From: a virus
Taxonomy: Duplodnaviria; Caudoviricetes
Length of the DNA: 64,000 nt
Reading direction: 5' to 3' (one strand)
Virus record (IMG/VR): IMGVR_UViG_3300042554_001750
The notes under the pieces were generated by a model. That model made no database searches, was not told the origin of the DNA, and saw only the letters and a list, made by a program, of their open reading frames with translations. Positions 4,568 through 45,800 of the stretch are shown here, piece after piece; the first letter of the stretch is position 1, and the number at the start of each line of letters is the position of its first letter. A program made the position numbers and the translations under genes.

Positions 4568-7500
4568 TTAAAACTGTATAACTGGTGATGTGGGCGGTGT
4601 GAAGTTAGCTGTATAACGGGCTACACCGTTTGTTACTCGTAAGTCATCTATGTAGCCGTTGAATTCAGTGAAATAACTTTCTCCCCCGTACCCTACATAG
4701 AGTGGTTGAGTGGTAAATGTAATATTTGTGCTATTTGACCCAGTGCCGGATGCCACCCCGTTTATATACCAAGTCCAAGTGCTTCCGTTACGCACAAACG
4801 CAAGGTGAGTCCAGGTATTTGCAGTGATCGCACTAGTGGCTGTTGTGTAAATATCCGAACCGCCTGTCAATCCGTTATAATGAATACTGGGTGTCCCTGC
4901 ATTAAGGTGCATCACAAATTTGGGCACACCACCAGGTCCGCCACTTAGTGCATAAAAACCGCGTATTCCGGCAATGCTACTTGGGTATAACCAGGCTTCA
5001 AAAGTAAAACTTCCAGTACCTAAATTATTATTTACTGAGAATGGTGAGACCAAGTAATCGCCAGTGCCATCAAACGACATACTGCTATTACCGTATTTCT
5101 TGATTACTCCAGTGGTACTAGCATTGCCCAGTGTTTCGTAAGTGGCCATCATGGCACTGTCGTAAATGGCTGCACTGGTACCGTTAGCCAATATCAGGGT
5201 GTTTTGTATAGGCTGTAATGGTGCCACTGGTGGTGCAAAAGACGCAGTATAAAGAACTGTGCCTCTAATGTATCTTAGATTAGATATGTATCCAGTCCAA
5301 AACTTTGCAGGATTTAAAGTGCTACCAATATAAAAATTTTGAGTTGTTTGATCATAATAAGTTCCTGTAGCGGAACTGCCAGACGCAACGCCATTTATAT
5401 AGTAACTGATAGTATTATCAGACCTAGTTACAACAACGTGGTTCCATTGATTTATGCGTACAACAGAAGAACCCGAAGATGTTCCAACGGATGCTCCGTC
5501 TCCATTATTATCTGACTGTACAGTTCCATTGGTGTTAACCATGAGACTTAATCCTCTGGAATTGCCGTTAAATGTACCAAAAAACGCACTTTGGGCTGCT
5601 AGACTGGTTGGATATAACCAAACCTCTATAGTCCAATTACCATTGGTAAGATTAAGTACTGGTGATAAAACACTAACTAAGTAATCCCCAGTACCATCAA
5701 AATACATGCTGCCACCGTAATTTGCCACACTGTAAGTAGCATTGCTACCAGTGGTACTAGTCCAGCCAAATGGGTTGAATTGAGTGGGCTGGCTGTTACC
5801 AAAGACGGTTATGGCGAAGTTGTTGGTGCTATTATCAACGAATGTGGCGTTTTGGCATGTTAGTAGACTTGTACCTGACACTGCGGTTAGTGGTGCAGTT
5901 GGGGGCGTGAATGCTGCTGTGTAAACTGCTGTGCCTTTGACCAAACGCACATTGGATATGTATCCTGTACATACACCTGTTACACTTCCGTTGAAAAATT
6001 CAGCTCCTATATACGTTGTTCCCGAAAATGTAGCCGATGAAGTCCAAGTACCCAGTGAAGCTCCGTTTAAATAGAGAGTCACTGTTGTTCCTGCCCGAAC
6101 CACAGCAACATGTGACCAAGTTCCAACTGCAGGTAATGTTGCACTACTGATACGGTTAGCTCCATTGGAATACACTATTAGTGCAGATCCTGTACTACCT
6201 ATATAAACTTCAATCCCCGTAGAAGTAAAAGAATCTCCAAGAGTAAAGAAAAAGTTGTTGCCGCTTGCAGAACGGTAAACCCAAAACTCAATAGTAAAGT
6301 CTGCATTTAGTGTAGTGGCAGCATTATTTGGCGCTGTCAAATAATCCCCAGTGCCATCAAAGTAACCACTATAACTTGTGGGAGTAGTCAACACTGGGTT
6401 GAAGGGGTTGAAGCGTTGTACGCTAACATCACCGTTTCTTGTTATAGTAAAGTTGTTACCACTGTCATCTATGAATCTATTATCAGCACAAGTTAGTAGG
6501 CTGGTGTTAGCGATTGGTGTGAGAGGTGCTGTGGGTGGCGTGAACGCTGCGGTATATACTGCTGTACCTCTTACTATGCGTAAATTTGAAATATAACCAT
6601 TGTATCCAGTATTTTGCACCGAACCTAAATTTAAGGTAGAACCCGAGGGCCCCTGTGGGGTACCAGATTTTGATACTGAAAATGCTTGAACCCCGTTAAT
6701 GTAACCCTTAAGGGTGGAATTTGAATTAGTGTAAACCATGGCAACATGAGTCCAGGTGTTCAAAGCAACAGTAGAAGTACTGACTGCGTTAGTTACTCCA
6801 GCACCATTATAGTAATAAAAATATAAGTTACCCGATGAATTTGTACCAAAACTCCAGTATGTATCTGCACTAGTTGGTAAACCATATGCAACTTGTAATG
6901 GCAAACTATTAGTAGCACTCTGGGCGTTTACTCTATTGAAAATCCACATTTCAATAGTGTAATCTGTGTCCCACCACTGGACTGTAGATGCACTGTAAGG
7001 CATTGTTAAATAATCTCCAGTGCCATCAAAATAATTGCTCCAGCCACCACCATAGGGCGTAAAACTGCCCTGTGTTGTATTACCATTTCTAGTAATTAAA
7101 AAGTTACTGGCACTACTATCCAAAAACATATTATTGTTGTTGGGCTGATTGTTTTGTAGTGTTAGTAGTTGTGTGTTTGCAACTGCGGTTAATGGTGCTG
7201 TGGGCACAGTTATAGTGGTTTGCGTAGGGTTATATACTGCTGTGCCCTTTACAAATCTTACATTTGATATGTAGCCAGTAACACCCTGTGCGACCGTTTC
7301 ATTATTGCCTATGCGAAGCTCACCTTGAGCAAAACTTGTACTATTAGTAACAGTACCGCCGTCTGTGCGAGAACCATTGATCCAGAGTGACATAGTAGTT
7401 CCGCTTCTTGATGCTGCAATATGTACCCATTGATTCAATGGCATATTGATGTTAGAAGTCAATAAATCGGCAACACCATAACTTCTAATTACAACCTTAC

Positions 7501-33173: not shown

Positions 33174-33428
33174 TTAGGACATGATCTTGGCCATTAATAT
33201 GAGCTTTTCTAAATGGTCAATAGCCTTGTTGATTTCATTTACCTTGTCTAAGGTCATGTTTGATTTGGGGTTTCGCCTGGCTAGAACTTCTATTTTACTC
33301 AACTCACTAACCATTTTTTCAATATTCAGAAACATTTTATTAAGGTCAGGGTTGTACCCAATACTACGCAAATCTCGGCGTAGTTGGTCACTTACTTTTT
33401 GAAAATCAACGGCGGTTTGAATATTCAT
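33174..33428 (-). CDS. Hypothetical helical protein
   Basis: 84 aa. Confidence 0.55.
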   Translation of the reverse strand: MNIQTAVDFQKVSDQLRRDLRSIGYNPDLNKMFLNIEKMVSELSKIEVLARRNPKSNMTLDKVNEINKAIDHLEKLILMAKIMS

Positions 33429-33897
33429 TTAATTGACTAAGTGTTGTGGTTATATCTACATGATGTATTGCAATGCCACCTGCTTGTTGCCATTCTACAA
33501 TATTTGATTGTCTATCGTCTATTAGAATGTCACCCGTGTTGCAATGTATATGCTTATCTTTACTATAGGGTCCAAAGTGTACAGGTATGTTTGGGAAGTA
33601 AGCTTGTGCCCAAAGTACTTTGTCATAGAATGCCCAATGTACATCATTGCCCTTTGGCACTGCTGTTAAGAACATAATTTCATAATAGTTGTCTATGGCA
33701 AACTTTTGACACTTGGTAACAAGTATATCAGCATATGGTGTTTTTTGCAAGTCTCTGTATAACCGAGGATTTTGAATCAATTGATTCCAAATCTCAAAAG
33801 GATAAACGCCATTGGATGGTGGAACGCCTAATGTCTCTAGTGCGTACCTGTCAAAATCAGCAACTACCCCATCCATGTCTAAGTATAATTTTTTCAC
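33406..33897 (-). CDS. 5'(3')-deoxyribonucleotidase, HAD superfamily (NT5C-like)
   Basis: LYLDMDGVVADF, K..W, ILIDD, W...GG. Confidence 0.85.
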   Translation of the reverse strand: MKKLYLDMDGVVADFDRYALETLGVPPSNGVYPFEIWNQLIQNPRLYRDLQKTPYADILVTKCQKFAIDNYYEIMFLTAVPKGNDVHWAFYDKVLWAQAYFPNIPVHFGPYSKDKHIHCNTGDILIDDRQSNIVEWQQAGGIAIHHVDITTTLSQLNEYSNRR

Positions 33898-34250
33898 TTT
33901 TGGCTATCTCCGGGTAGTACTCGGTAATTATCTTCAACACTATCAGGCGTGCTTACTTCAATGATTGTACCTTCTTCTAAACAAATTACCTGATGCGGTT
34001 GTAAAGGTCTATTGCGCCATGTTGCACCCTGTTCAAGTATAATGTCATGTATGCTGGCATCTTTTGTTTCAATAAAAACTATTTTAAATTTACCACTCAA
34101 TATATACCACGATTCATCTTTCTCGGCATGAAAGTGCATGCTAAACTTAGCATCTTTGTTAAACTTTAAAAGCTTACCACAATACTTTTCATTGGTAGCA
34201 AATATAAATTCATGCCCCCAACCTTTCTCAACGAATCCTTCTAGTCTCAT
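33894..34250 (-). CDS. Cupin-fold sugar isomerase-like protein
   Basis: KGWGHE, FSMHFHAEKDESWY, H...E cupin motifs. Confidence 0.75.
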   Translation of the reverse strand: MRLEGFVEKGWGHEFIFATNEKYCGKLLKFNKDAKFSMHFHAEKDESWYILSGKFKIVFIETKDASIHDIILEQGATWRNRPLQPHQVICLEEGTIIEVSTPDSVEDNYRVLPGDSQK

Positions 34251-34999
34251 TTTATTTCCTCTAATTTGGGTGCATACACGCCCAAATGTTGAACTGTTAC
34301 ACTTGCAGCTTTATTGGCAAACTCAATTGCTTTAACTATATCATTGGTTTCTAAAAACATAAACACTAACGCAGCCAAAAAAGTATCTCCGCACCCAGTA
34401 ACATCTACTACTTCAGTTTCACGGGCAGGAAACTGCACACCGTTATATGTACAACCTTTGTTTCCTTGTGTCACTATAAGTGAACTGGTTGTGCTGTTTG
34501 CTTTTGAAAATTCTGTTTCGTTTATCTTTACAACACAACCTTCAAACTCTTTGAGGTCATGTTTTTTGGTATCTATAAAAATAGGACCTAAATATTTCTT
34601 CCTGATAGATTTTACCAAATCATAAGTTACTAATCCTTTGTTGTAATCACTAACGACAACGGCATCAATGTTGTGTAAGTCTATTGAAATTTCATTTATA
34701 GTTAGTGGATCAGACTTTATATCATCGTCAACTCTAACGATATGCTGCTTGCTTTTAGCGTCAATTAATCTTATCTTAGTTGAATTACCTTTGGTCACAA
34801 AGCAAACATCTAATCCTAGCATCAATAAGTTTTCTTTTACATTTGCTGCCATGCCCGGCTTAGATATTTTTTTAGTCAGTTTGAAAACAGGCACAGGTGC
34901 TTCAGGACTAATTCTATCAACAGTACCAAAGTGGTACTCATCAATACAACTGTCACCGATTAATAATACTGTGAATTTTTTCTGTTGTTGAGTATCCAT
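34247..34999 (-). CDS. hldA: PfkB-family heptose-7-phosphate kinase (RfaE/HldE domain I)
   Basis: GTVDRISPEAPVPV, SDYNKG, DVTGCGDTF. Confidence 0.85.
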   Translation of the reverse strand: MDTQQQKKFTVLLIGDSCIDEYHFGTVDRISPEAPVPVFKLTKKISKPGMAANVKENLLMLGLDVCFVTKGNSTKIRLIDAKSKQHIVRVDDDIKSDPLTINEISIDLHNIDAVVVSDYNKGLVTYDLVKSIRKKYLGPIFIDTKKHDLKEFEGCVVKINETEFSKANSTTSSLIVTQGNKGCTYNGVQFPARETEVVDVTGCGDTFLAALVFMFLETNDIVKAIEFANKAASVTVQHLGVYAPKLEEIK

Positions 35000-35339
35000 C
35001 TAATCTATCAAAGAAAATAATTTCCCTACAAAAATATTCACCGACAATGGGTTTTCCGATATAGTCACTACCCTTTACCATAATATCACATTGTTCTACC
35101 AATGCTATCAATTCTTGGTCCGAATCAAATATTACAACTTTGTCAACAGCTTTGAGATTTTCTAGCAGTAATTTGCGTTCGTCTTGTGAATTGATAGGTC
35201 TTGATGATCCTTTTAATTCTTTAACTCTACGATCAGAATCAATCGCTACGACCAAATTATCAGTCAAAGACTTAGCGTAATTTAATAGTGCCAAATGCCC
35301 AGAGTGTATAATATCAAAGGTGCCGTTCACTAATACCAT
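34953..35339 (-). CDS. hldC: Heptose-1-phosphate adenylyltransferase (RfaE/HldE domain II)
   Basis: NGTFDIIHSGH (HxGH), KG..RPIN, VKGSDY, YSTT. Confidence 0.85.
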   Translation of the reverse strand: MVLVNGTFDIIHSGHLALLNYAKSLTDNLVVAIDSDRRVKELKGSSRPINSQDERKLLLENLKAVDKVVIFDSDQELIALVEQCDIMVKGSDYIGKPIVGEYFCREIIFFDRLDGYSTTEKIHSIINR

Positions 35340-35377: not shown

Positions 35378-36376
35378 TTACTTGATAGGGACTAAGTTGT
35401 TTTTAAATATTTCCCAAGCCTGTTGCCAACTCCATCGTTGACTTCCATTTAAAACTATCTGCCTATCCAAATGCAAACAACGCTGGATTGCAATAGATAA
35501 CTCTTGTTCCATATAGCCAGTGATACCCTCGTCAATTACATCCATTGGTCCCTGACATCTATATGCTGCCACCGGTGTACCGCATGCCATTGCTTCTATC
35601 ATAACAATACCAAATGTTTCCCATTGACTTGGAAAAACAAATACATCAGCATTAGCATAGTAATATGCCAATTCATGACCTGTTTTAAAACCTACAAATT
35701 GTATATCGGGGTATTTCTTCTTATATGTTTCCAACATTGGTCCATCCCCTACCATTATTTTATAACTGTTAGGATATTCTAATTTAAAGAAATCTTCTAG
35801 ATTTTTTTCTTTACTAACTCGGCTTACACAGACCAACAATTTAACATCGTCATTTCTATTTCTTTGAGAAGAATTAAAAACCTTTCTATCAACGCCTCTA
35901 GTCCAGCTAACAATTTCTCCATCAAATCCATGCTCACGCAGTTCATTCACCATACTGTCAGTGGTGGTCAATACTTTACCTGAATGTTTGTGAAACCATC
36001 TAACTAAAGGCCAAGTAATACTTTCAGGTATTCCAAATAACTTTCTAATTCCTTCTGGAAACTTAGTATGATAAGCAGTATTGTAGCGATAACCGTGTTT
36101 GTCAAGATATTGTCTAGCACACAAACCCACAGGACCTTCGGTGGCGATATGGATATGATCCGGAGATATCTTCTCAATCGCCTGGCCGATCTTCCTGGGA
36201 AAGGCAATCTTGACTTCGTTGTAGCCAGGGCAACCAATATAGCGGAACCTCCCGGGATCAATAAAAACAACACGATAATTGTCGTGAAGCGCCATAGCCT
36301 CAATATTTTTGTAGGTTGTAACGACACCATTTATTTGATTTGGTAAATTATCAGTTATAATCAGTATAGTTTTCAC
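35378..36376 (-). CDS. agt: GT4 glycosyltransferase of Agt type (diacylglycerol glucosyl/glucuronosyltransferase-like), GTG start
   Basis: TD...QINGVV, HIATEGPVG, YHTKFPE, RVSKEKN, FPSQWETFGIVMIEAMACGTPV (EX7E). Confidence 0.75.
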   Translation of the reverse strand: MKTILIITDNLPNQINGVVTTYKNIEAMALHDNYRVVFIDPGRFRYIGCPGYNEVKIAFPRKIGQAIEKISPDHIHIATEGPVGLCARQYLDKHGYRYNTAYHTKFPEGIRKLFGIPESITWPLVRWFHKHSGKVLTTTDSMVNELREHGFDGEIVSWTRGVDRKVFNSSQRNRNDDVKLLVCVSRVSKEKNLEDFFKLEYPNSYKIMVGDGPMLETYKKKYPDIQFVGFKTGHELAYYYANADVFVFPSQWETFGIVMIEAMACGTPVAAYRCQGPMDVIDEGITGYMEQELSIAIQRCLHLDRQIVLNGSQRWSWQQAWEIFKNNLVPIK

Positions 36377-36504
36377 TTTATAGATTCTGTATGTTTATGA
36401 TGTAGACTTTTCTTTAAAAGTTTTAACCAAGTCTTTTTTTCCCGAGCTTGATTATGCTGGACGCAAGCCTTGTAATGTTTTTTGATCAACTTTCTTACTT
36501 TCAT
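36373..36504 (-). CDS. Unannotated 43-aa basic protein translationally coupled to the GT4 gene
   Basis: GGAGG RBS, MKVRKLIKKHYKACVQHNQAREKKTWLKLLKKSLHHKHTESIK*, TGA overlaps GTG of next gene. Confidence 0.55.
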   Translation of the reverse strand: MKVRKLIKKHYKACVQHNQAREKKTWLKLLKKSLHHKHTESIK

Positions 36505-36670
36505 AACAACCTCCTTGTATCTTAAAACTATCAAACTTTAACCAGTATTCTACTGATTTTAATGCCTGTTCACACTCCGTCTGTGTCTGAAATTTTATCA
36601 CTGCTTTGCCCGGCACGTCGGCGGGATTGTTTATGTGTACTGCTATCAAAATTAGTAACCACATTGTCAC
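36452..36670 (-). CDS. Small hypothetical protein with hydrophobic N-terminus
   Basis: 72 aa, AAGGAG RBS, two Cys. Confidence 0.55.
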   Translation of the reverse strand: MTMWLLILIAVHINNPADVPGKAVIKFQTQTECEQALKSVEYWLKFDSFKIQGGCYESKKVDQKTLQGLRPA

Positions 36671-37418
36671 TCTCCTTAGTCCAAATTACGATTTCCCAGT
36701 GGCCATCGTGGTGTTCAACCAATGCAGTCATAGATTCTACCCAGTCGCCATCATTCATATAAACAATGCCATCAATTTCTTTTATTTCAGCATGATGAAT
36801 GTGCCCACAGATCACACCATCAAAACCACGCTTCTTACAATAAGCAACTAAATTTTTTTCAAACTGAAATATAAAGTCAACAGCCTTTTTCACTCGCTGT
36901 TTCAAATATTGACTCAAACTCCAATAACCAAATCCAAATTTATGACGCCACCAATTGAACTTGTTGTTTAACCATAATACCACATCGTATGCTTTGTCAC
37001 CTAAAAATGCTAACCACGGCGCTAATCTAGTAATTCCATCAAATAAATCTCCGTGTATTACAAGATAATGTTTGCCATCTACACCTATGTGTTCAGTTTG
37101 GTTGGTTACTTCAACATTACCAAAGCCGATATTATAAGGCATGAGTGGTCGTAAAAATTCATCATGATTGCCTGCCACATAAATCACGCGAGTACCACGT
37201 TTAGCATGACCTAATATTCGTCTGACAACATTAGTATGGCTTTGCTTCCAGCGCCATTTGTTTTGCTGTATACGCCAAACATCCAAAATATCACCCACTA
37301 AGTACAATGTTTCACAAGTGTTGTGCTTGAGAAAATTATTTAGTTGTTCGGCTTTACTATCTCTAGTGCCTAAATGAACATCACTGACAAAAATGGCGCG
37401 ATAAGTCTTTGGTGTCAT
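36570..37418 (-). CDS. plcP: PlcP-type phospholipase C (LpxH-like metallophosphoesterase)
   Basis: SDVHLG, GDILD, GNHDE, HGD, CGHIHH, N.GDWVES; GNHD rather than LpxH GNRD; adjacent GT4. Confidence 0.8.
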   Translation of the reverse strand: MTPKTYRAIFVSDVHLGTRDSKAEQLNNFLKHNTCETLYLVGDILDVWRIQQNKWRWKQSHTNVVRRILGHAKRGTRVIYVAGNHDEFLRPLMPYNIGFGNVEVTNQTEHIGVDGKHYLVIHGDLFDGITRLAPWLAFLGDKAYDVVLWLNNKFNWWRHKFGFGYWSLSQYLKQRVKKAVDFIFQFEKNLVAYCKKRGFDGVICGHIHHAEIKEIDGIVYMNDGDWVESMTALVEHHDGHWEIVIWTKESDNVVTNFDSSTHKQSRRRAGQSSDKISDTDGV

Positions 37419-37456
37419 ACGAATATTTATCGTGTTATTAATTACAAACCTATTAT

Positions 37457-37478
37457 AAAAAAAGGCCCTTTCGGGCCT
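37457..37478 (-). terminator. Intrinsic terminator after pstS
   Basis: AGGCCC-GAAA-GGGCCT-TTTTTT. Confidence 0.85.
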
Positions 37479-37520
37479 GCTGGTTACGGATATCCAGCAC
37501 CACCTTATCTTGTGGTCGGT

Positions 37521-38510
37521 TTATTTAATTTTACTTATTTCTTTTTCTACTAACGCTACAACACTGTCTGGTAGAGGAACATAATCAAGTTCTTCTGCCA
37601 TCTTATCGCCCTTAGCAAAAGCCCATCTAAAGAATTTTAATGCTTCTTGTGCTTCTTGTGGTTTGTCATTCTTTAGATACATGATGATGAATGTGGCACC
37701 TGTAACAGGCCATGCAGTCCTGCCAGGTTGATCAGTTAATACTTGGAAAAATGTTTTTTCCCATGTAGCATTTGCTGCCGCAGCCTTGAATGTTAAATCA
37801 TCAGGAGCTACCCACTGACCATCTTTATTCTGCATCTGCACCCAATTCATTTTAGTTTGTTTGACATAAGCATACTCAACATAACCTAGTGCACCGGGTA
37901 GTTGACGAACCATAGCACTAACGCCCTCATTACCCTTGCCACCTACACCAACTTTCCAGTTAACAGCAGTACCTTCTCCAATTGTTTCTTTAAATTCGCT
38001 ATTAACTTTGCTTAGATAGTTTGTCCATAAGAATGTCGTGCCGCTACCATCTGCACGACGAACTACAGCAATATCTTGATTGGGTAGTTTTAATGATGGA
38101 TTAAGGTTTGCAATAGCAGGATCATCCCACTTTTTAATCTTACCTAAATAGATATCTGCAATTACTTGTCCGGTGAGTTTCATTTCGCCAGGCTTGACTT
38201 CTTTCAGATTAATGACAGGTACTACTCCACCAATTACTGTAGGGAACTGTGTTGCACCCATGCTAGATAATTTGTCGTCTTTTAATGGCATATCACTTGC
38301 ACCGAACGCTACTGTCTTGGCTTCAATTTGTCTTATGCCTGCACCTGATCCTACACTTTGATAATTTAATCTAATACCAGTTTCTTTATTATAGGCATCT
38401 GCCCACTTAGCATAAAGCGGAGCCGGGAATGTTGCCCCGGCTCCATTAATTGTCTGTGCGTGTGCCGTGAATGATACGGCTGCTAATACCATAGCAATTA
38501 TTTTGTTCAT
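37521..38510 (-). CDS. pstS: Phosphate ABC transporter periplasmic binding protein
   Basis: Signal peptide; GAGATFPAPLY, YQSVGSGAGI, FGASD, RRADGSGTT, WPVTG. Confidence 0.95.
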   Translation of the reverse strand: MNKIIAMVLAAVSFTAHAQTINGAGATFPAPLYAKWADAYNKETGIRLNYQSVGSGAGIRQIEAKTVAFGASDMPLKDDKLSSMGATQFPTVIGGVVPVINLKEVKPGEMKLTGQVIADIYLGKIKKWDDPAIANLNPSLKLPNQDIAVVRRADGSGTTFLWTNYLSKVNSEFKETIGEGTAVNWKVGVGGKGNEGVSAMVRQLPGALGYVEYAYVKQTKMNWVQMQNKDGQWVAPDDLTFKAAAANATWEKTFFQVLTDQPGRTAWPVTGATFIIMYLKNDKPQEAQEALKFFRWAFAKGDKMAEELDYVPLPDSVVALVEKEISKIK

Positions 38511-38554
38511 ACTTGTCTCCTTGTGTGTTGAACAACTGTATTTACAAAAAAAGT

Positions 38555-38593
38555 GTTAAGAAATTATGACAAAATTGTGACAGTTTATGACAA
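38555..38593 (-). promoter_or_regulatory. Pho box array (PhoB-binding) upstream of pstS
   Basis: TTGTCAT-AAA-CTGTCAC-AATT-TTGTCAT-AATT-TCTTAAC; last three half-sites at 11-nt period. Confidence 0.8.
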
Positions 38594-38615
38594 AAGGGGC
38601 CAATGGCCCCTTTTG
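38591..38615 (-). terminator. Intrinsic (bidirectional-type) terminator after porin gene
   Basis: CAAAAGGGGCCA-T-TGGCCCCTTTTG inverted repeat. Confidence 0.8.
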
Positions 38616-38634
38616 TATTTTGGCAAAGATAAAA

Positions 38635-39546
38635 TTAAAACTTGTGTGTTACACCAACACCAAATCCACTAGTACCATTGGCTGCAGGACAGCCAATAGC
38701 TAAACAACTTACAGCACTTCTATCAACATTGCGATATACAACATGCAAAGCAGTACGCTTGCTTAAATTGTAATCAGCACCAACATTGTAAGCAGTTGTG
38801 TCTGTATTTGTACGGCCATAACTTGCCTTTGCAGTGATATGACCCATATCACGTGCTACACCAAGCGTTTGACCTTTGCTAGTTACTAGACCTTCGTTGT
38901 CGCTGTATACATACGCTACTGTAGTTCCCATCAATTTAGTTTGAGCACCGAATACTGTGCTCTTTTCTGTTCCTTGTTGGAAACGTGCAACATCAACATG
39001 TAATCTTGCGATTTTAGTTGAGCCGGCAAAAACTTCAGCGTCTGCGCCAGGACCATTTAGTGTACGCTCATACGCAACTACAGAACCCTTAACAGGAACC
39101 ATTGTAGCATATACAGCATCTGCTAAACGCAATCCGCGTAGATTGTGTACATCACCTGCAACACTACCATACAATGTTCCGAAAACATCATTTTTAGTGA
39201 TTGCTAAGAAGTGGCTGTGTACATTGCGACCTAAGTCAACACTACCAAACTTATTGGCAAGACCGACTGTTGCTTGACGATCACCAACTCTAGTATCATC
39301 ACCTCCAAAGGTGTTACCCTTCAATGATGTTTCTACAGTGGCTCGGGCAAACAAATCACGGCCCATTTTTTCTTTAACTGATAGTGCAAAGTTGCTGGTT
39401 GGTTCAGTAACAAGTTGAGTACTGGTAGAACCATTACCAACTTTAGAGTTATCAACAAATGCGCTGACTTTTCCGTTTATTGTTACCTGAGCACTAGCAA
39501 CTGAAACTAGCCCCATCAATAAAGTTGCCATTATAATTTTCTTCAT
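38635..39546 (-). CDS. Gram-negative trimeric porin (betaproteobacterial type)
   Basis: Signal peptide, GSVDLGR, ADYNLSKRT.L, amphipathic C-terminal strand ending in Phe (GVGVTHKF). Confidence 0.85.
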   Translation of the reverse strand: MKKIIMATLLMGLVSVASAQVTINGKVSAFVDNSKVGNGSTSTQLVTEPTSNFALSVKEKMGRDLFARATVETSLKGNTFGGDDTRVGDRQATVGLANKFGSVDLGRNVHSHFLAITKNDVFGTLYGSVAGDVHNLRGLRLADAVYATMVPVKGSVVAYERTLNGPGADAEVFAGSTKIARLHVDVARFQQGTEKSTVFGAQTKLMGTTVAYVYSDNEGLVTSKGQTLGVARDMGHITAKASYGRTNTDTTAYNVGADYNLSKRTALHVVYRNVDRSAVSCLAIGCPAANGTSGFGVGVTHKF

Positions 39547-39568: not shown

Positions 39569-39588
39569 GCCTGTTAAATTTAACAGGC
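39569..39588. repeat. Perfect 20-bp palindrome in porin leader
   Basis: GCCTGTTAAATTTAACAGGC. Confidence 0.8.
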
Positions 39589-39691
39589 TAGATTAATATT
39601 TATTGAGACAAAAAAATCCAAATACTTTTATAGTTTACACCAAGTATCTTACTATTATGCGTAATAAGTGCTTTTAGTTTATGGTTATATA

Positions 39692-42532: not shown

Positions 42533-42560
42533 AAAAAAAGGAGGCTTAAGCCCCCTTTTT
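42533..42560 (-). terminator. Intrinsic terminator after tmRNA
   Basis: AAAAAGGGGGC-TTAA-GCCTCC-TTTTTTT. Confidence 0.8.
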
Positions 42561-42890
42561 GGTTAGTTTGGTAACAAGGTCTTTCCTACCCCGTCTCAAG
42601 CTCAAGCGGCTAGAGCAAATACCTCATCGTTTGCAGGTATAAGTTTTGCTTGATTTACGGTCATCGCCTACCGTGCTGTCCACTCTGTTACTCTTTGCCC
42701 TGTCGAAACCATGACTGGCCCATCATAAAAGGACTATAGCAAAAACTACTAAAACTACAGTTATACCAAACAACCATTTTACTACTTCGTCGTTCATATA
42801 ATCCCTTTATGGTGGACCAGGCGGGAGTCGAACCCGCGTCCAGAACACTTTTCTCTTTGCTTCATACAGCAATAATCTTTATGTTATCAT
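42560..42890 (-). ncRNA. ssrA: Two-piece (circularly permuted) tmRNA; acceptor piece ~42890-42810, intervening segment 42809-42722, coding piece from 42721
   Basis: T-arm and CCA end GCGGGTTCGACTCCCGCCTGGTCCACCA upstream of 5' end GGGCCAGTCATGGTTTCGAC; acceptor stem with G3.U; tag reading frame (A)NDEVFALAA*. Confidence 0.92.
42723..42797 (-). CDS. 24-aa single-transmembrane ORF inside the tmRNA intervening segment
   Basis: AAAGGGA RBS-like, MNDEVVKWLFGITVVLVVFAIVLL*. Confidence 0.5.
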   Translation of the reverse strand: MNDEVVKWLFGITVVLVVFAIVLL

Positions 42891-45800
42891 GACTTGTATT
42901 TATTTGTAAAGTACTGATTTAACCATTCCCATTCGTATGTTAATTTCAATTTGGCAAAATCGTCTTTATTGTTTTCATAATACTCATAAGCATCATTTGC
43001 ACCCATTAATGCATACTCACTAAAGTCACCCTCAGCCTTTGCTAACCAAGTATGCAAACGTGTTTGACTCATATAGTCTTGCTCATCATTACACAGTTTA
43101 ATTACTTCTCTGAATGCAGTTCTCCAAGTGCTATATGGGTCTGTATTGAACATTGCAGTTCCCGAATTGATTTCTACTACTTCATGGTTGTCATCAAGTG
43201 TAAAGTCTAATCCTTTACCGGTGTTATTCAATGTCATTATCTTGTTATAGGCAATCATAGCTTGGTGACCATATACTAACCCGTTCACAGGATTAGTAGC
43301 GTGAAAAATATAATGCTTTGACTTTTGAAGCCTGTCAGGTTGCCAGTTCCAATCAAAATTGTCGTCTACTTTTAACTTAGCAAATACCGTAAAGAACCAC
43401 GGCGTAGTGCTTACATTTGCTGCGGCATGGTACGCATTTACTCTTCCATTTACCCCATCAACGCGGACAACTTTGTTCTTTTTACCTTTGGTTACTTTTA
43501 ATAGATGTTCGTAGTTTTCTTCTGCGTTACTTTCACCATTGCTTAAAAATACAATGTCTAACGGATTGCTTTGTAATGGCTTGTAAGATTTTTTAATATA
43601 GGGATAATCATATAATTCTTCTTTTACATATTTTATAGCATCTTTAGGAACTATTATTCTTGTTCCACCTGTAGTAGTTACTAGAATAGTTTTAGAACTT
43701 TCAGACCATAAACTAATAGGTTTCTCATCCTTGATATTAATATTTCTATGGTCGTTAGTTTTAAAAACTGCATAAGGGAACTTAAAGTTTTTATCTATAG
43801 ATCCAACATGACTGTCACTAGTAATAAATTCAGGCGGATTGATTCTAGTGACTGATTGATGCTCATTGAAATTGATACTTGGATAATTTTCTAATGAAGA
43901 AATGTCATTTATGAACTTGCGCAATAATTCAACATTTACTAAAAAGGTATCACCATATTTTTGTCTGTCACTAGGAAACACATGCAATTGTTCCTGCGCA
44001 AAGGGATCGCAAATATAACTGAAATCAAATTTATCGTAATGACATATTGAATTACATACCCAAATAAACTGATCCTTTTTATCTTCTAACAGATTAAGAA
44101 TCTTTTCAAATGTTTTATGATAGGTGTCTACAAAATCAATAGTATGTAATTTTCTATTCCCAATTTTTTCTGTAATGTCGTATATGATATCAACCGATTC
44201 GTAGTTTCCGTGATCTATCAAATATACATCATATAGACAATCAGTAGCCTTTGCTCTTTTACTTTTTACTAAGTTTATAGTATTGAGGTGCTCAATAACT
44301 TTAACATACTTGGTATCTTCTAAAAAGGTTTCTGAATTAATGACATAAGTATTTCCCCAATGATTCCATTGAGTACCAAACACATGAATCATTTTGATTT
44401 GCCATGGACTTGGATAAAAATCAAAAGTAAAATCAGAATAATCTAATTCGCTATTCAATACCCAAAATAATTTTGTTTCTGTTTTGCGAATGCATCTTGC
44501 GATTGTTTCAACCCAGTTGTTGAAGAATCTTGTTTTTTGAAGCTTGGGATATAACTCTTTAAGTTTATTGAAACGAATATTACTTTCTAGGTTACCTTTA
44601 TCAATAAAAAACATACTCAAATTAGTATCTGTTTGAACTTGATGTTCTTCAACATAGTTATATTCTTTATAGCCCAACAAATACAACGGAGCATTGATGT
44701 AGTAGGTTTGTGTGTTCTTACTATATTCATTACCGAACACATTTATGTGTCTAAAGTTTTGTTCAGTTGGCCTCCAACTAAAATCAAACTTATCATAGTT
44801 TAAATCAGGGTTTAGTGCCCAAAATACTTCTTCAGGATGTTGATTAATCAAATCTTCTAATGTAGTCGTAATATAATATTTGTTTACTGTTGTCTTTTTA
44901 CTTTCATTAGAACGTTCCATCAATACAACTTCCGTAGCACCAGGCACTGTGTATCTAGGGCCATTGTTAGCCCACTGATATATTTGAGGCGGACTATGAG
45001 GATTAGGTCTCCATGTAAAATCAAATGTTTCTAAATCATCAGTATTGTTAACGCTCCACAAATTTAGTTGTGCAGCAGGAACAGCTACCGGTTCTAACAT
45101 ATATTTTTTATCTGTTGCTCCCTCTACATGATATTCAACAGTGGGTTCAGTAGATGCATCATTCCATTTATTACCAAACACATATATGTAGGGAGGTGAC
45201 TTGGGATCAGGTCTCCAACTAAAATCAAAACTTTCAATTGGTAGTAATTTTTTCCAATGATTTTCTGTCGCAGTAGATTTTACTAATGCTTTGATGTTAT
45301 CAATGTATGTGTATTCTGTAGCTCCGGGACAATGATACTCAACAGTTGGTTCTTGAAGTGCATCATTCCATTGATTACCAAACACATAGATATAAGGAGG
45401 ACTATGTGGATTAGGTCTCCAGCTATAATCAAAACTTTCTATGTCTATTAATGTTTTCCAATACTGTTGTGTTTTACTAACTTTAGCAATTATGTTAGTA
45501 ATATACTTTTTGTCAGTGGCCCCATGAACTGTGTACAGTACCGTAGGCTCAGTCATAGCATCGTGCCATTGATTGCCAAACACATAGATATAAGGAGGAC
45601 TGCCGGGTTCGGGTCTCCAACTAAAATCAAAATCTTCTACTGGAATCAACACACTCCAATTATCCATGTCGGGCAATGTTTTCGCAAATCTGTCATTCAT
45701 GTATTTGCGTTCAGATGCCCCTTCACAGTGATATTCAATAGTTGGTTCTGTTTCAGCATTGTTACTTTGATTACCCCATACATAGATATATGCTGGTTCT

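What the first reader, a model, noticed from the sequence alone, without database searches (positions are those of the whole stretch)
35378..39546. Phage-encoded phosphate-starvation lipid-remodelling cassette: porin - pstS - plcP - agt
Seen: contiguous porin, PstS, a GNHD-type metallophosphoesterase and a GT4 with HIATEGP/YHTKFPE motifs. Known: in alphaproteobacteria (Sinorhizobium, Agrobacterium, SAR11, roseobacters) PlcP cleaves phospholipids to DAG and Agt converts DAG to glucosyl/glucuronosyl-DAG under P limitation, and plcP-agt are often adjacent; LpxH has GNRD instead. Phage pstS is known; a phage plcP-agt pair is, to my knowledge, uncharacterised. Inference: the phage mines host membrane phospholipids for phosphate to build its large genome, back-fills the membrane with glycolipid, and raises uptake through its own porin and PstS; altered lipids could also change superinfection or lysis.
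Basis: partly seen in the sequence, partly recalled or inferred. Interest (0 to 1): 0.88.

Follow-up and report, generated by a model that had tools for sequence, protein, structure and literature searches.

The report
Phage-borne phosphate-starvation lipid remodelling module
A roughly 370-kb lake-water phage carries intact-looking copies of the bacterial genes that strip phosphate from membrane lipids and replace those lipids with sugar lipids; binding sites for the host's phosphate-starvation regulator sit in front of them, so the phage probably draws on the host membrane for phosphorus to build its large DNA genome.

Summary
Four intact minus-strand genes lie at the stated coordinates inside a phage genome: a Porin_4 porin, PstS, a GNHD metallophosphoesterase (MPE) and a GT4.

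- **plcP-agt pair.** The MPE and GT4 are orthologue-grade relatives of the proteobacterial plcP-agt operon. They share 47-58% and 36-44% identity with bacterial genes that sit in the same order in 55 of 80 genomes. The MPE is clearly not LpxH. The GT4 keeps the Agt/GTcp signature residues except that the catalytic Asp is Glu.
- **Regulation.** A three-half-site Pho box lies 56 nt upstream of pstS. A weaker one precedes plcP.
- **Distribution.** At least 598 IMG/VR contigs carry the MPE. In 59 of 59 informative relatives it is followed by a glycosyltransferase, either this GT4 or an unrelated GT2. Of 60 Pho-type boxes in about 1.3 Mb of phage DNA, 40 precede plcP and 5 precede pstS.
- **Weak links.** pstS neighbours plcP in only 4 of 71 relatives and the porin in none, so the four-gene "cassette" is specific to this phage. 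The porin's link to phosphate is unsupported.
- **Prior record.** No paper on phage plcP-agt was found; viromics lists call the gene "lpxH". The scan noted this stretch and its Pho box before, on this same genome.
- **Untested.** Enzyme activities and any benefit to the phage are inferred.

The parts
38635..39546 (-). Outer-membrane porin of the general Porin_4 type, 303 aa, with a signal peptide and a C-terminal Phe. It is adjacent to the module but its link to phosphate is weak.
   Evidence: Porin_4 E = 2.7e-22. Homologues at 54-93% identity lie mostly in related phage contigs, and the Atlas clusters are 100% viral. No hit in 50,697 deposited phage records. No Pho box upstream; ATAAATA at 39603 followed by a palindromic leader hairpin. 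Two small contigs from an RNA library map only here, which is weak evidence.
38593..38614 (-). Terminator-like hairpin after the porin. Its T-tract overlaps the first Pho half-site.
38566..38593 (-). Pho box array upstream of pstS: TTGTCAT (38593-38587), CTGTCAC (38583-38577) and TTGTCAT (38572-38566), spaced 10 and 11 nt apart. TAAATA follows at 38544-38539, a Shine-Dalgarno AAGGAG at 38522-38517, and the ATG at 38510.
   Evidence: This is the only match with 2 or fewer mismatches to CTGTCATNNNNCTGTCAT in the 64 kb. All 5 phage pstS genes examined have the same layout of box, 11 nt, then TAAATA.
37521..38510 (-). PstS, the periplasmic high-affinity phosphate-binding protein, 329 aa with a signal peptide.
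   Evidence: NF008171 at 437.7 bits (cut-off 339) and TIGR00975 at 400.7 bits. phrog_5385. 56% identical to enterobacterial PstS and 39% to cyanophage PstS.
37463..37478 (-). Terminator-like hairpin after pstS (AGGCCC-GAAA-GGGCCT plus a T-run).
37424..37458 (-). Degenerate Pho-type box TTATAAT-AGGT-TTGTAAT (37458-37441), then an 11-nt spacer, then TAAATA (37429-37424), 5 nt before the plcP ATG.
   Evidence: Read. The same layout (box, 11 nt, TAAATA, 3-8 nt, ATG) occurs in 28 of 63 distinct upstream regions of phage plcP, against 0.002 expected.
36570..37418 (-). PlcP-family, LpxH-fold metallophosphoesterase: a predicted Mn-dependent phospholipase C that releases diacylglycerol. 282 aa, no signal peptide; residues 254-282 are disordered.
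36452..36664 (-). Conserved small ORF of 70 aa with a hydrophobic N-terminus. It has its own AAGGAG ribosome-binding site and overlaps the plcP tail by about 95 nt. Function unknown.
   Evidence: Reading frame and RBS. Conserved in frame in L001 and L004 while the PlcP tail diverges. Present in 69 of 80 viral loci. No Pfam family; Atlas gives viral hypothetical clusters.
35378..36376 (-). Agt-type GT4 glycosyltransferase: a predicted UDP-sugar:diacylglycerol glycosyltransferase, 332 aa. It carries the phage-clade variant xWETFG in place of xTDTFG.

Best explanation
This is a phage auxiliary-metabolism module for phosphorus. It sits in a roughly 370-kb T4-like jumbo phage of lake bacteria.

**Proposed mechanism**
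- The core is a plcP-(small ORF)-agt unit derived from the proteobacterial Pho-regulon lipid-renovation operon.
- PlcP is a cytoplasmic, membrane-peripheral enzyme with an LpxH fold and a two-metal centre. It is predicted to cleave the phospho-head group from host glycerophospholipids, leaving diacylglycerol.
- The Agt-type GT4 is predicted to glycosylate that diacylglycerol from a UDP-sugar. The bilayer would then survive while its phosphorus is released for nucleotide and DNA synthesis.
- In this phage a proteobacterial-type pstS was placed directly upstream. It has its own canonical Pho box, so host PhoB would switch on extra periplasmic phosphate capture when the infected cell is P-starved.
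- plcP carries a weaker Pho-type box at the same distance from a TAAATA element.
- The porin next door is a separate gene of this phage clade with a late-promoter-like motif. It may raise outer-membrane permeability, but it is not demonstrably part of the phosphate response.

**Shown here:** gene identities, family membership by sequence, synteny and phylogeny, the cis-elements and their family-wide association, and the wide distribution in viral contigs.

**Inferred:** enzyme activities, PhoB binding, the timing of expression, and any benefit to the phage.
For: **1. PlcP, not LpxH**
- The LpxH NCBIfam models score 48 and 36 bits against cut-offs of 134 and 190.
- Four bacterial genomes hold a true LpxH (221-333 bits) and also a PlcP-like paralogue (37-57 bits).
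- In the tree LpxH is separated by a very long branch, and the phage clade nests inside proteobacterial PlcP-like proteins.
- GNHD against GNRD splits the two groups perfectly.
- The nearest solved folds are all LpxH, at only 15-22% identity.

**2. Synteny**
- In 55 of 80 bacterial genomes the MPE homologue (47-58% identity) is followed on the same strand by a full-length homologue of the phage GT4 (36-44%).
- In Paraburkholderia the order is plcP-agt-dagK. This matches the experimentally characterised B. cenocepacia operon BCAL2364-66 (PMC13691135).
- These identities equal those between characterised orthologues: PlcP 46-51%, Agt 35-43%.

**3. GT4 identity**
- The best genome-wide hit of the phage GT4 is the plcP-adjacent GT4 (230-275 bits). 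Other GT4 paralogues score below 60 bits, apart from second-copy homologues at 105-224 bits in three genomes.
- It keeps the Agt/GTcp signatures defined by mutagenesis in PMC8231724: His104, Thr162/Arg163, Trp320, the Gly-rich motif and both UDP motifs.
- In both trees the phage clade is monophyletic (99 and 100 SH-aLRT) and sits next to the same gammaproteobacterial lineage.

**4. Phosphate control**
- The only Pho box with 2 or fewer mismatches in the window lies 56-73 nt before the pstS ATG, with a third half-site.
- 13 of 83 bacterial plcP leaders hold such a box. That is 13 of the 18 hits in 1.65 Mb.
- Of 60 tandem TGT(A/C)A(C/T) boxes in about 1.3 Mb of phage DNA, 40 precede plcP and 5 precede pstS. 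The usual layout is box, 11 nt, TAAATA.

**5. Coupling to glycolipid synthesis**
- In 59 dereplicated viral loci with enough downstream sequence, plcP is followed by a glycosyltransferase in every one. 32 have the GT4 and 27 have an unrelated GT2/GT21-like enzyme of 238-240 aa.
- A DesA-family acyl-lipid desaturase lies within 10 kb in 20 of 80 loci.

**6. Independent association with pstS**
- Cultured Pelagibacter phage Mosig has its homologue (48%) divergently adjacent to pstS.

**7. Genuine phage DNA, and widespread**
-.
Against: - No enzyme assay, lipidomics or expression data exist. No raw-read RNA evidence was obtainable, and the one RNA library covered only the porin.
- I could not retrieve any experimentally characterised PlcP or Agt sequence for direct comparison. 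Orthology is argued through synteny with genera in which the operon has been characterised.
- The catalytic Asp256 of the SAR11 Agt is Glu in all 120 nearest phage homologues. D256E cost more than 90% of activity in that enzyme. Against this, about 8 of 57 bacterial plcP-adjacent homologues, Limnohabitans among them, also carry Glu.
- The Pho-type box before plcP in this window is degenerate, and a terminator-like hairpin separates pstS from plcP.
- The ATAAATA / TAAATA element also precedes virion genes, so plcP-agt may simply be late genes whatever the P status.
- Most phage boxes read TGTAA(T/C) rather than the canonical TGTCA. That they bind PhoB is inferred from their presence before pstS.
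- By count alone, one Pho box per 64 kb is not significant (0.59 expected). Its weight comes from its position.
- The host is unknown.
Confidence: 0.72

Rival explanations
1. The enzymes are the same, but the pay-off is different. The phage converts phospholipid to glycolipid to change or stabilise the envelope, not to obtain phosphorus. Possible benefits are blocking superinfection, delaying lysis over a long jumbo-phage latent period, or resisting membrane-active stress.
For: - An ATAAATA late-promoter-like element sits directly before plcP and the porin, as it does before virion genes.
- A phage porin and, in relatives, an acyl-lipid desaturase lie nearby, which points to general envelope remodelling.
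- In bacteria the glycolipids do change phage attachment and antibiotic tolerance, as the titles and abstracts of PMC9804370 and PMC9938194 indicate.
Against: - The tandem box occurs almost only before plcP and pstS (45 of 60 occurrences).
- pstS was recruited next to plcP in at least two distant phage lineages.
- The bacterial orthologues are members of the Pho regulon.
Confidence: 0.15
2. This is an LpxH-like lipid A enzyme together with an LPS-core glycosyltransferase. The pair would be an LPS-biosynthesis auxiliary gene set that modifies the receptor surface, which is how databases and viromics papers annotate it.
For: - JGI names the homologues LpxH.
- The Mosig and S-SRM01 homologues are annotated as LpxH.
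- Viral lpxH is listed under LPS biosynthesis in PMC9611531 and PMC10653327.
- The nearest solved fold is LpxH.
- HldE-like heptose genes lie just downstream.
Against: - The protein fails the LpxH equivalog models by a wide margin.
- The bacterial homologues are paralogues that coexist with a true LpxH.
- The motif is GNHD, not GNRD.
- Trees and synteny place both genes in plcP-agt.
- The HldE-like genes are not linked to plcP in relatives.
Confidence: 0.05
3. The region is host DNA, either contamination or a chimeric assembly, and not phage genes.
For: All four genes have close cellular family relatives.
Against: - GC3 matches the phage (0.25-0.32), whereas bacterial loci with the operon have 55-68% overall GC.
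- Phage genes lie on both sides.
- The identical arrangement appears in 19 or more lake metagenome runs, with contigs bridging each junction.
- At least 598 IMG/VR contigs carry the gene.
Confidence: 0.01

Closest known systems
Proteobacterial PlcP-Agt lipid-renovation operon (S. meliloti SMc00171; P. aeruginosa PA3219/PA3218; SAR11 HTCC7211; Phaeobacter MED193; B. cenocepacia BCAL2364-66)
   Same: - Gene order plcP then agt.
- 47-58% and 36-44% identity to bacterial genes in the operon positions.
- Metal-binding motifs including GNHD.
- Agt signature residues.
- Pho-box control.
   Different: - Carried by a lytic-type jumbo phage.
- A conserved 70-aa ORF is inserted between the two genes and overlaps the plcP tail.
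- The catalytic Asp is Glu, with an adjacent Thr to Trp change (xWETFG), in all phage copies.
- No dagK.
- In about half of related phages agt is replaced by a GT2.
- The box half-sites are often TGTAA(T/C).
LpxH (UDP-2,3-diacylglucosamine diphosphatase)
   Same: Calcineurin-like fold with a helical lipid-binding cap. It is the nearest solved structure.
   Different: 15-22% identity; GNRD rather than GNHD; below the family cut-off; a separate clade; a different genomic partner.
Cyanophage pstS / phoA auxiliary genes induced through host PhoBR (from my own knowledge: Zeng and Chisholm 2012)
   Same: A phage-borne pstS with a Pho box, following the same logic of plugging into the host's P-starvation regulon.
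   Different: This PstS is proteobacterial-type (56% to enterobacterial, 39% to cyanophage PstS). Here the regulon extends to membrane-lipid phosphorus.
GT21/GT2 lipid glycosyltransferases (for example Pgt of Agrobacterium and Mesorhizobium; carotenoid and hopanoid GT2s)
   Same: The GT2 that replaces agt in 27 of 59 related phage loci hits Glyco_transf_21 and lipid-acceptor GT2 models weakly.
   Different: It is only 238-240 aa, mostly viral, absent from this window, and its acceptor is unknown.
Prophage-encoded porins of E. coli (Lc of phage PA-2, NmpC; from my own knowledge)
   Same: A phage-encoded general-diffusion porin.
   Different: Porin_4 (betaproteobacterial type) in a jumbo T4-like phage. 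No match in deposited phage genomes.

Membership tests
PlcP (Pho-regulated phospholipase C of the LpxH-like metallophosphoesterase group) | Calcineurin-like metal-binding motifs (DxH, GD, GNHD, H, GHxH) | tested here: met
   D13, H15, G42, D43, G83-N84-H85-D86, H122, G205-H206 and H208 are invariant in a 38-sequence alignment. Pfam Metallophos.
PlcP (Pho-regulated phospholipase C of the LpxH-like metallophosphoesterase group) | A paralogue distinct from LpxH | tested here: met
   LpxH models score 48 and 36 bits against cut-offs of 134 and 190. True LpxH is found elsewhere in the same bacterial genomes. The two are separate in the tree. GNHD in 92 of 92 against GNRD in 4 of 4.
PlcP (Pho-regulated phospholipase C of the LpxH-like metallophosphoesterase group) | Orthology to an experimentally characterised PlcP | tested here: inconclusive
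   No characterised sequence could be fetched. Indirect support: 53% identity to the Paraburkholderia gene of a plcP-agt-dagK operon arranged like B. cenocepacia BCAL2364-66. The identities fall in the 46-51% range seen between characterised PlcPs.
PlcP (Pho-regulated phospholipase C of the LpxH-like metallophosphoesterase group) | Pho-box / PhoB control | tested here: met
   In this window: a canonical box before pstS and a degenerate box before plcP. In relatives: a box before plcP in 28 of 63 leaders. In bacteria: 13 of 83. PhoB binding itself was not tested.
PlcP (Pho-regulated phospholipase C of the LpxH-like metallophosphoesterase group) | Mn-dependent hydrolysis of PE, PG or PC to diacylglycerol | not testable with these tools
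   Needs an enzyme assay.
Agt / GTcp group of GT4 diacylglycerol glycosyltransferases | GT-B GT4 domains, about 330 aa | tested here: met
   Glyco_transf_4 plus Glycos_transf_1; 332 aa.
Agt / GTcp group of GT4 diacylglycerol glycosyltransferases | Catalytic His104 and the DAG-binding residues Thr162, Arg163 and Trp320 (PMC8231724) | tested here: met
   YHTKFPE, SWTRGVD and RWSWQQAW align with the conserved bacterial columns.
Agt / GTcp group of GT4 diacylglycerol glycosyltransferases | Catalytic Asp256 within FPSxTDTFG (Asp in place of the usual GT4 Glu) | tested here: not met
   The phage has FPSQWETFG, and all 120 nearest homologues have xWETFG. About 8 of 57 bacterial plcP-adjacent homologues also have Glu. 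D256E lost more than 90% of activity in GTcp. The phage GT4 is therefore a variant subgroup rather than a canonical member.
Agt / GTcp group of GT4 diacylglycerol glycosyltransferases | UDP-sugar motifs GRVAxEKN and the Gly-rich motif | tested here: met
   SRVSKEKN, QINGVV and ATEGPVG.
Agt / GTcp group of GT4 diacylglycerol glycosyltransferases | Located immediately downstream of plcP, and the best genome-wide hit is the plcP-adjacent GT4 | tested here: met
Agt / GTcp group of GT4 diacylglycerol glycosyltransferases | Makes glucosyl-, galactosyl- or glucuronosyl-DAG | not testable with these tools
   Needs expression and lipidomics.
PstS | Passes the equivalog model and has a signal peptide | tested here: met
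   NF008171 at 437.7 bits (cut-off 339) and TIGR00975 at 400.7 bits (cut-off 205). An N-terminal hydrophobic leader ending AHA is visible in the translation.
Phosphate-specific porin (OprP/OprO, PhoE-like) | Porin_O_P family, or Pho-box control | tested here: not met
   Only Porin_4 and Porin_1 hit. No Pho-type box lies upstream.
LpxH | Passes the NCBIfam equivalog cut-off and has GNRD | tested here: not met

The most novel reading that the evidence does not exclude
A large, globally common clade of T4-like jumbo phages runs its own small Pho regulon through host PhoB. The core is plcP, a new small membrane protein, and one of two unrelated glycosyltransferases. This unit would move phosphorus from host membrane lipids into phage DNA.

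Three further readings follow:
- The mostly viral 240-aa GT2 would be a previously unrecognised diacylglycerol glycosyltransferase family.
- The Trp-Glu variant of Agt would be a phage-specific catalytic solution.
- The widely reported viral "lpxH" LPS gene would be a misannotation of this function.
Probability: 0.35. Interest if true: 0.85.

Novelty: new variant of a known kind. Interest (0 to 1): 0.72.

Why it matters
Phage phosphorus genes known so far act on uptake or scavenging (pstS, phoA, phoH). A phage-borne route that frees the phosphorus locked in the host's own membrane would be a new type of auxiliary metabolism.

**Scale (my rough estimate, from general knowledge).** A 370-kb genome needs about 7.4e5 P atoms. 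The phospholipids of a small lake bacterium hold a few million. Lipid P could therefore pay for several genomes, which is comparable to the P in host DNA.

**Abundance.** The gene is common: at least 598 IMG/VR contigs and near-identical copies in 19 or more lake metagenome runs. It appears to be filed as "lpxH / LPS biosynthesis" in viromics surveys, so P-cycle and lipid-biomarker interpretations in P-limited lakes and oceans may be missing a viral term.

**Testable by-products.**
- A natural experiment in non-orthologous glycosyltransferase replacement.
- An Asp-to-Glu active-site variant.
- A conserved overlapping small ORF.
- A set of phage promoters predicted to respond to PhoB.

Tried and rejected
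- **Nucleotide search.** Megablast of the 9-kb region against deposited phages gave no match.
- **Whole genome.** None is held for the window.
- **Named, characterised PlcP/Agt sequences.** Cluster look-ups gave only "LpxH" or no name. The PlcP biochemistry papers PMC6052262 and PMC2806695 are not held. Direct comparison with SMc00171, PA3219, BCAL2364 or the HTCC7211 enzymes was therefore not possible.
- **Literature.** A search on "plcP + virus" was swamped by papain-like cysteine proteases. "plcP + auxiliary metabolic + viral" returned nothing relevant. The pelagimyophage search found no mention, and the Mosig genome note does not discuss the gene.
- **Host identification through the phage's permuted beta-type tmRNA.** None of five betaproteobacterial genomes tested (Paraburkholderia, Limnohabitans, Chromobacterium, Curvibacter, Acidovorax) has that tmRNA type above cut-off. 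The host remains unknown.
- **RNA evidence.** The one metatranscriptome with any words of the stretch gave two short contigs, in the porin only, and nothing on pstS, plcP or agt. These are contigs rather than reads, so this says nothing about expression or its absence.
- **Pho box before the porin.** None was found.
- **Small ORF and the 214-aa box-associated ORF of relatives.** No family in Pfam or the Atlas.
- **L007.** This 348-kb "MAG" contig groups with the phage clade, and I considered that it might be another phage. It is bacterial: GC 0.55 and no phage gene matches.

Full report
**What is there**

On the minus strand lie four intact ORFs:
- a 303-aa porin (38635-39546)
- a 329-aa PstS (37521-38510)
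- a 282-aa calcineurin-like metallophosphoesterase, here "MPE" (36570-37418)
- a 332-aa GT4 glycosyltransferase (35378-36376)

Pfam and NCBIfam confirm the families. PstS passes its equivalog cut-off (437.7 against 339 bits). The MPE only grazes the LpxH models (48 bits against a cut-off of 134).

It has its own AAGGAG ribosome-binding site and a hydrophobic N-terminus, and it overlaps the last ~95 nt of the MPE gene. Both frames stay open in related phages, but the small ORF is the conserved one while the MPE tail diverges. The AlphaFold model shows that tail as disordered.

**Phage context**

- All 48 large ORFs are on one strand.
- Virion, baseplate, MoxR and DUF2201 genes flank the region.
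- A structural protein is about 45% identical to proteins of T4-like cyanomyoviruses.
- The window's own GT4 sequence occurs on contigs up to 370,087 bp. Relatives lie on IMG/VR contigs of 353-525 kb.
- GC3 of the four genes (0.25-0.32) matches the phage.
- The stretch is near-identical in 19 or more lake or freshwater metagenome runs from about as many studies. Contigs from independent runs bridge each junction.

Host contamination is excluded.

**Is the MPE a PlcP?**

- *Bacterial relatives.* A scan of one genome per species found relatives at 47-58% identity across Alpha-, Beta- and Gammaproteobacteria.
- *Synteny.* In 55 of 80 of those loci a full-length homologue of the phage GT4 (36-44% identity) follows on the same strand within about 150 nt. 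This is the plcP-agt arrangement described for Methylosinus, P. aeruginosa, SAR11 and Burkholderia.
- *Paraburkholderia.* There the next gene is a diacylglycerol kinase. This reproduces the plcP-agt-dagK operon shown experimentally in B. cenocepacia (PMC13691135).
- *Separate from LpxH.* Four of five such genomes also hold a true LpxH elsewhere (221-333 bits), while their plcP-position gene scores 37-57 bits, like the phage protein.
- *Tree.* With those LpxHs as outgroup, the phage sequences form one clade (SH-aLRT 99) nested within the PlcP-like proteins. That clade sits next to a gammaproteobacterial group, together with one bacterial MAG and the homologue from Pelagibacter phage Mosig. This was a quick search and contains long branches, so I treat the exact sister group as tentative.
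- *Motif.* GNHD against GNRD separates the two families without exception.
- *Fold.* The nearest solved folds are all LpxH, at 15-22% identity.

I could not fetch any experimentally characterised PlcP. Membership therefore rests on synteny, phylogeny and identity levels equal to those between characterised orthologues: 46-51% for PlcP and 35-43% for Agt.

**Is the GT4 an Agt?**

- In four bacterial genomes the best hit of the phage GT4 is the plcP-adjacent gene (230-275 bits). Other GT4 paralogues score below 60 bits, apart from second-copy homologues at 105-224 bits in three genomes.
- The GT4 tree repeats the MPE tree. The phage clade is monophyletic (100) and lies next to the same gammaproteobacterial sequences. 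This pattern would be consistent with joint acquisition of the pair.
- The mutagenesis-defined signatures of the SAR11 enzyme GTcp (PMC8231724) are present: the Gly-rich motif, ATEGPxG, His104 in YHTKFPE, Thr162/Arg163 in WTRGVD, the Trp320 region, and GRVAxEKN as SRVSKEKN.
- One signature is not met. FPSxTDTFG reads FPSQWETFG, so the catalytic Asp256 is Glu, preceded by Trp. All 120 nearest homologues share xWETFG.
- D256E cost GTcp more than 90% of its activity. On the other hand, about 8 of 57 bacterial plcP-adjacent homologues also carry Glu.

I therefore file the phage GT4 as a variant subgroup of Agt, not a canonical member.

**Regulation**

*pstS.* After the porin's terminator-like hairpin come three half-sites, TTGTCAT-AAA-CTGTCAC-AATT-TTGTCAT (38593-38566). 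TAAATA, a Shine-Dalgarno site and the pstS ATG follow. This is the only match with 2 or fewer mismatches to the Pho-box consensus in 64 kb. With 0.59 expected per window, the count alone is not significant. The position in the 124-nt pstS leader is what counts.

*plcP.* After the pstS terminator comes TTATAAT-AGGT-TTGTAAT, then 11 nt, TAAATA, 5 nt and the ATG. This is a degenerate copy of a layout that is very common in relatives.

*Across the family.*
- A tandem TGT(A/C)A(C/T)-N5-TGT(A/C)A(C/T) box lies in 28 of 63 distinct 80-nt leaders of phage plcP, against 0.002 expected. It usually sits exactly 11 nt from TAAATA.
- All five phage pstS genes examined have the same module.
- Of 60 boxes in about 1.3 Mb of phage DNA, 40 precede plcP and 5 precede pstS.
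- Bacterial plcP leaders hold 13 of the 18 Pho boxes with 2 or fewer mismatches found in 1.65 Mb.

Sharing a box with pstS, the archetypal PhoB target, is the best available evidence that phage plcP is phosphate-regulated.

*Caveat.* ATAAATA is strongly strand-biased (16 against 1) and also precedes virion genes at 5-26 nt from their start codons. It may be the phage's late promoter, giving expression independent of phosphate.

**How conserved is the four-gene cassette?**

It is not conserved as a unit. IMG/VR holds at least 598 contigs with the MPE at 76-89% identity. Among the best 80:
- pstS lies within 2.5 kb in 4 of 71 informative loci. Those copies are only 51-54% identical to this one.
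- The porin lies nearby in none.

Porin homologues (54-93% identity) do occur in related phages, in the same genome region but without pstS or plcP beside them. They form all-viral Atlas clusters. None is present in 50,697 deposited phage genomes. The porin is Porin_4, not OprP-type, and has no Pho box. Its role in phosphate uptake is a guess.

**What is conserved**

The conserved unit is plcP, then the small ORF (69 of 80 loci), then a glycosyltransferase. Of 59 dereplicated loci with enough downstream sequence:
- 32 carry the GT4
- 27 carry an unrelated 238-240-aa GT2/GT21-like enzyme at the same position
- none lack a glycosyltransferase

That GT2 is mostly viral and weakly resembles lipid-acceptor GT2s. 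Replacement of one fold by another at the same position argues that the selected function is glycosylation of the PlcP product. A DesA-family acyl-lipid desaturase lies within 10 kb in 20 of 80 loci. The HldE-like, cupin and NT5C genes downstream in this window are not linked to plcP in relatives.

**Prior knowledge**

- Cultured Pelagibacter phage Mosig has a 48% homologue divergently next to its pstS. Synechococcus phage S-SRM01 has a 36% homologue standing alone. Both are annotated as LpxH.
- Viromics papers list viral "lpxH" under LPS biosynthesis, including a transcript in Lake Baikal.
- Full-text searches found no paper describing a phage-encoded PlcP or PlcP-Agt.

**Verdict**

- The core interpretation, a phage-borne PlcP-Agt lipid renovation module tied to phosphate starvation, is well supported computationally.
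- The four-gene "cassette" and the porin's role are not supported.
- The physiological claim that the phage mines the membrane for P is a reasonable inference that needs assays.
- The host is unknown. The phage's permuted beta-type tmRNA points to a betaproteobacterium, but five candidate genomes lack that type.

Noticed in passing
window 36452-36664 (-): A conserved 70-aa ORF with its own AAGGAG RBS and a hydrophobic N-terminus overlaps the disordered C-terminal tail of plcP by about 95 nt. It is present between plcP and the glycosyltransferase in 69 of 80 related viral loci. No known family.
   Followed up: partly
L122:7804-8520, L184:10901-11623 and 25 other viral loci: In about half of related phages the Agt-type GT4 is replaced, at the same position after plcP and the small ORF, by an unrelated and mostly viral GT2/GT21-like protein of 238-240 aa. 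This is non-orthologous displacement and a candidate new lipid glycosyltransferase.
   Followed up: partly
L131:11704-12417, L001:4475-5185 and 19 other viral loci: A DesA-family acyl-lipid desaturase (399.7 bits against a cut-off of 400) lies within 10 kb of plcP in 20 of 80 related phage loci. The region looks like a membrane-lipid island. The gene is absent from this window.
   Followed up: partly
window, minus strand: 42487, 39603, 37430, 35354, 23535, 20381, 18493, 15786, 9130, 1864 and others: ATAAATA occurs 16 times on the coding strand and once on the other. It usually lies 5-26 nt before a start codon, virion genes included. This looks like a T4-type late promoter with very short or absent leaders.
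   Followed up: partly
window 42534-42922 (-): A phage-encoded permuted tmRNA matches Rfam beta_tmRNA (138 bits) and tmRNA_permuted (137 bits). Five betaproteobacterial genomes that were checked lack this type.
   Followed up: partly
window 33406-35339 (-): Directly downstream of agt lie a split HldE-like pair (adenylyltransferase 34953-35339, kinase 34247-34999), a WbuC-like cupin (33894-34250) and an NT5C-type deoxyribonucleotidase (33406-33897). All have PHROG families. They are not linked to plcP in relatives.
   Followed up: no
L006 (Pelagibacter phage Mosig MT647606) 5841-5994: The intergenic region between the divergent pstS and the plcP homologue holds repeated (T/C)TTAACA units, two of them 11 bp apart. 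This resembles the TTAA-type Pho boxes of cyanobacteria and alphaproteobacteria (comparison from my own knowledge).
   Followed up: no
window 39569-39588 (-): A perfect palindrome (GCCTGTTAAATTTAACAGGC) lies in the porin leader between the ATAAATA motif and the start codon. It could be a terminator of the upstream gene or a regulatory hairpin.
   Followed up: no
window 38870-39063 and 39346-39473: The only contigs from a metatranscriptome library that match the 8-kb region at 99% or more fall inside the porin gene. This is weak, since these are contigs and DNA carry-over is possible.
   Followed up: no
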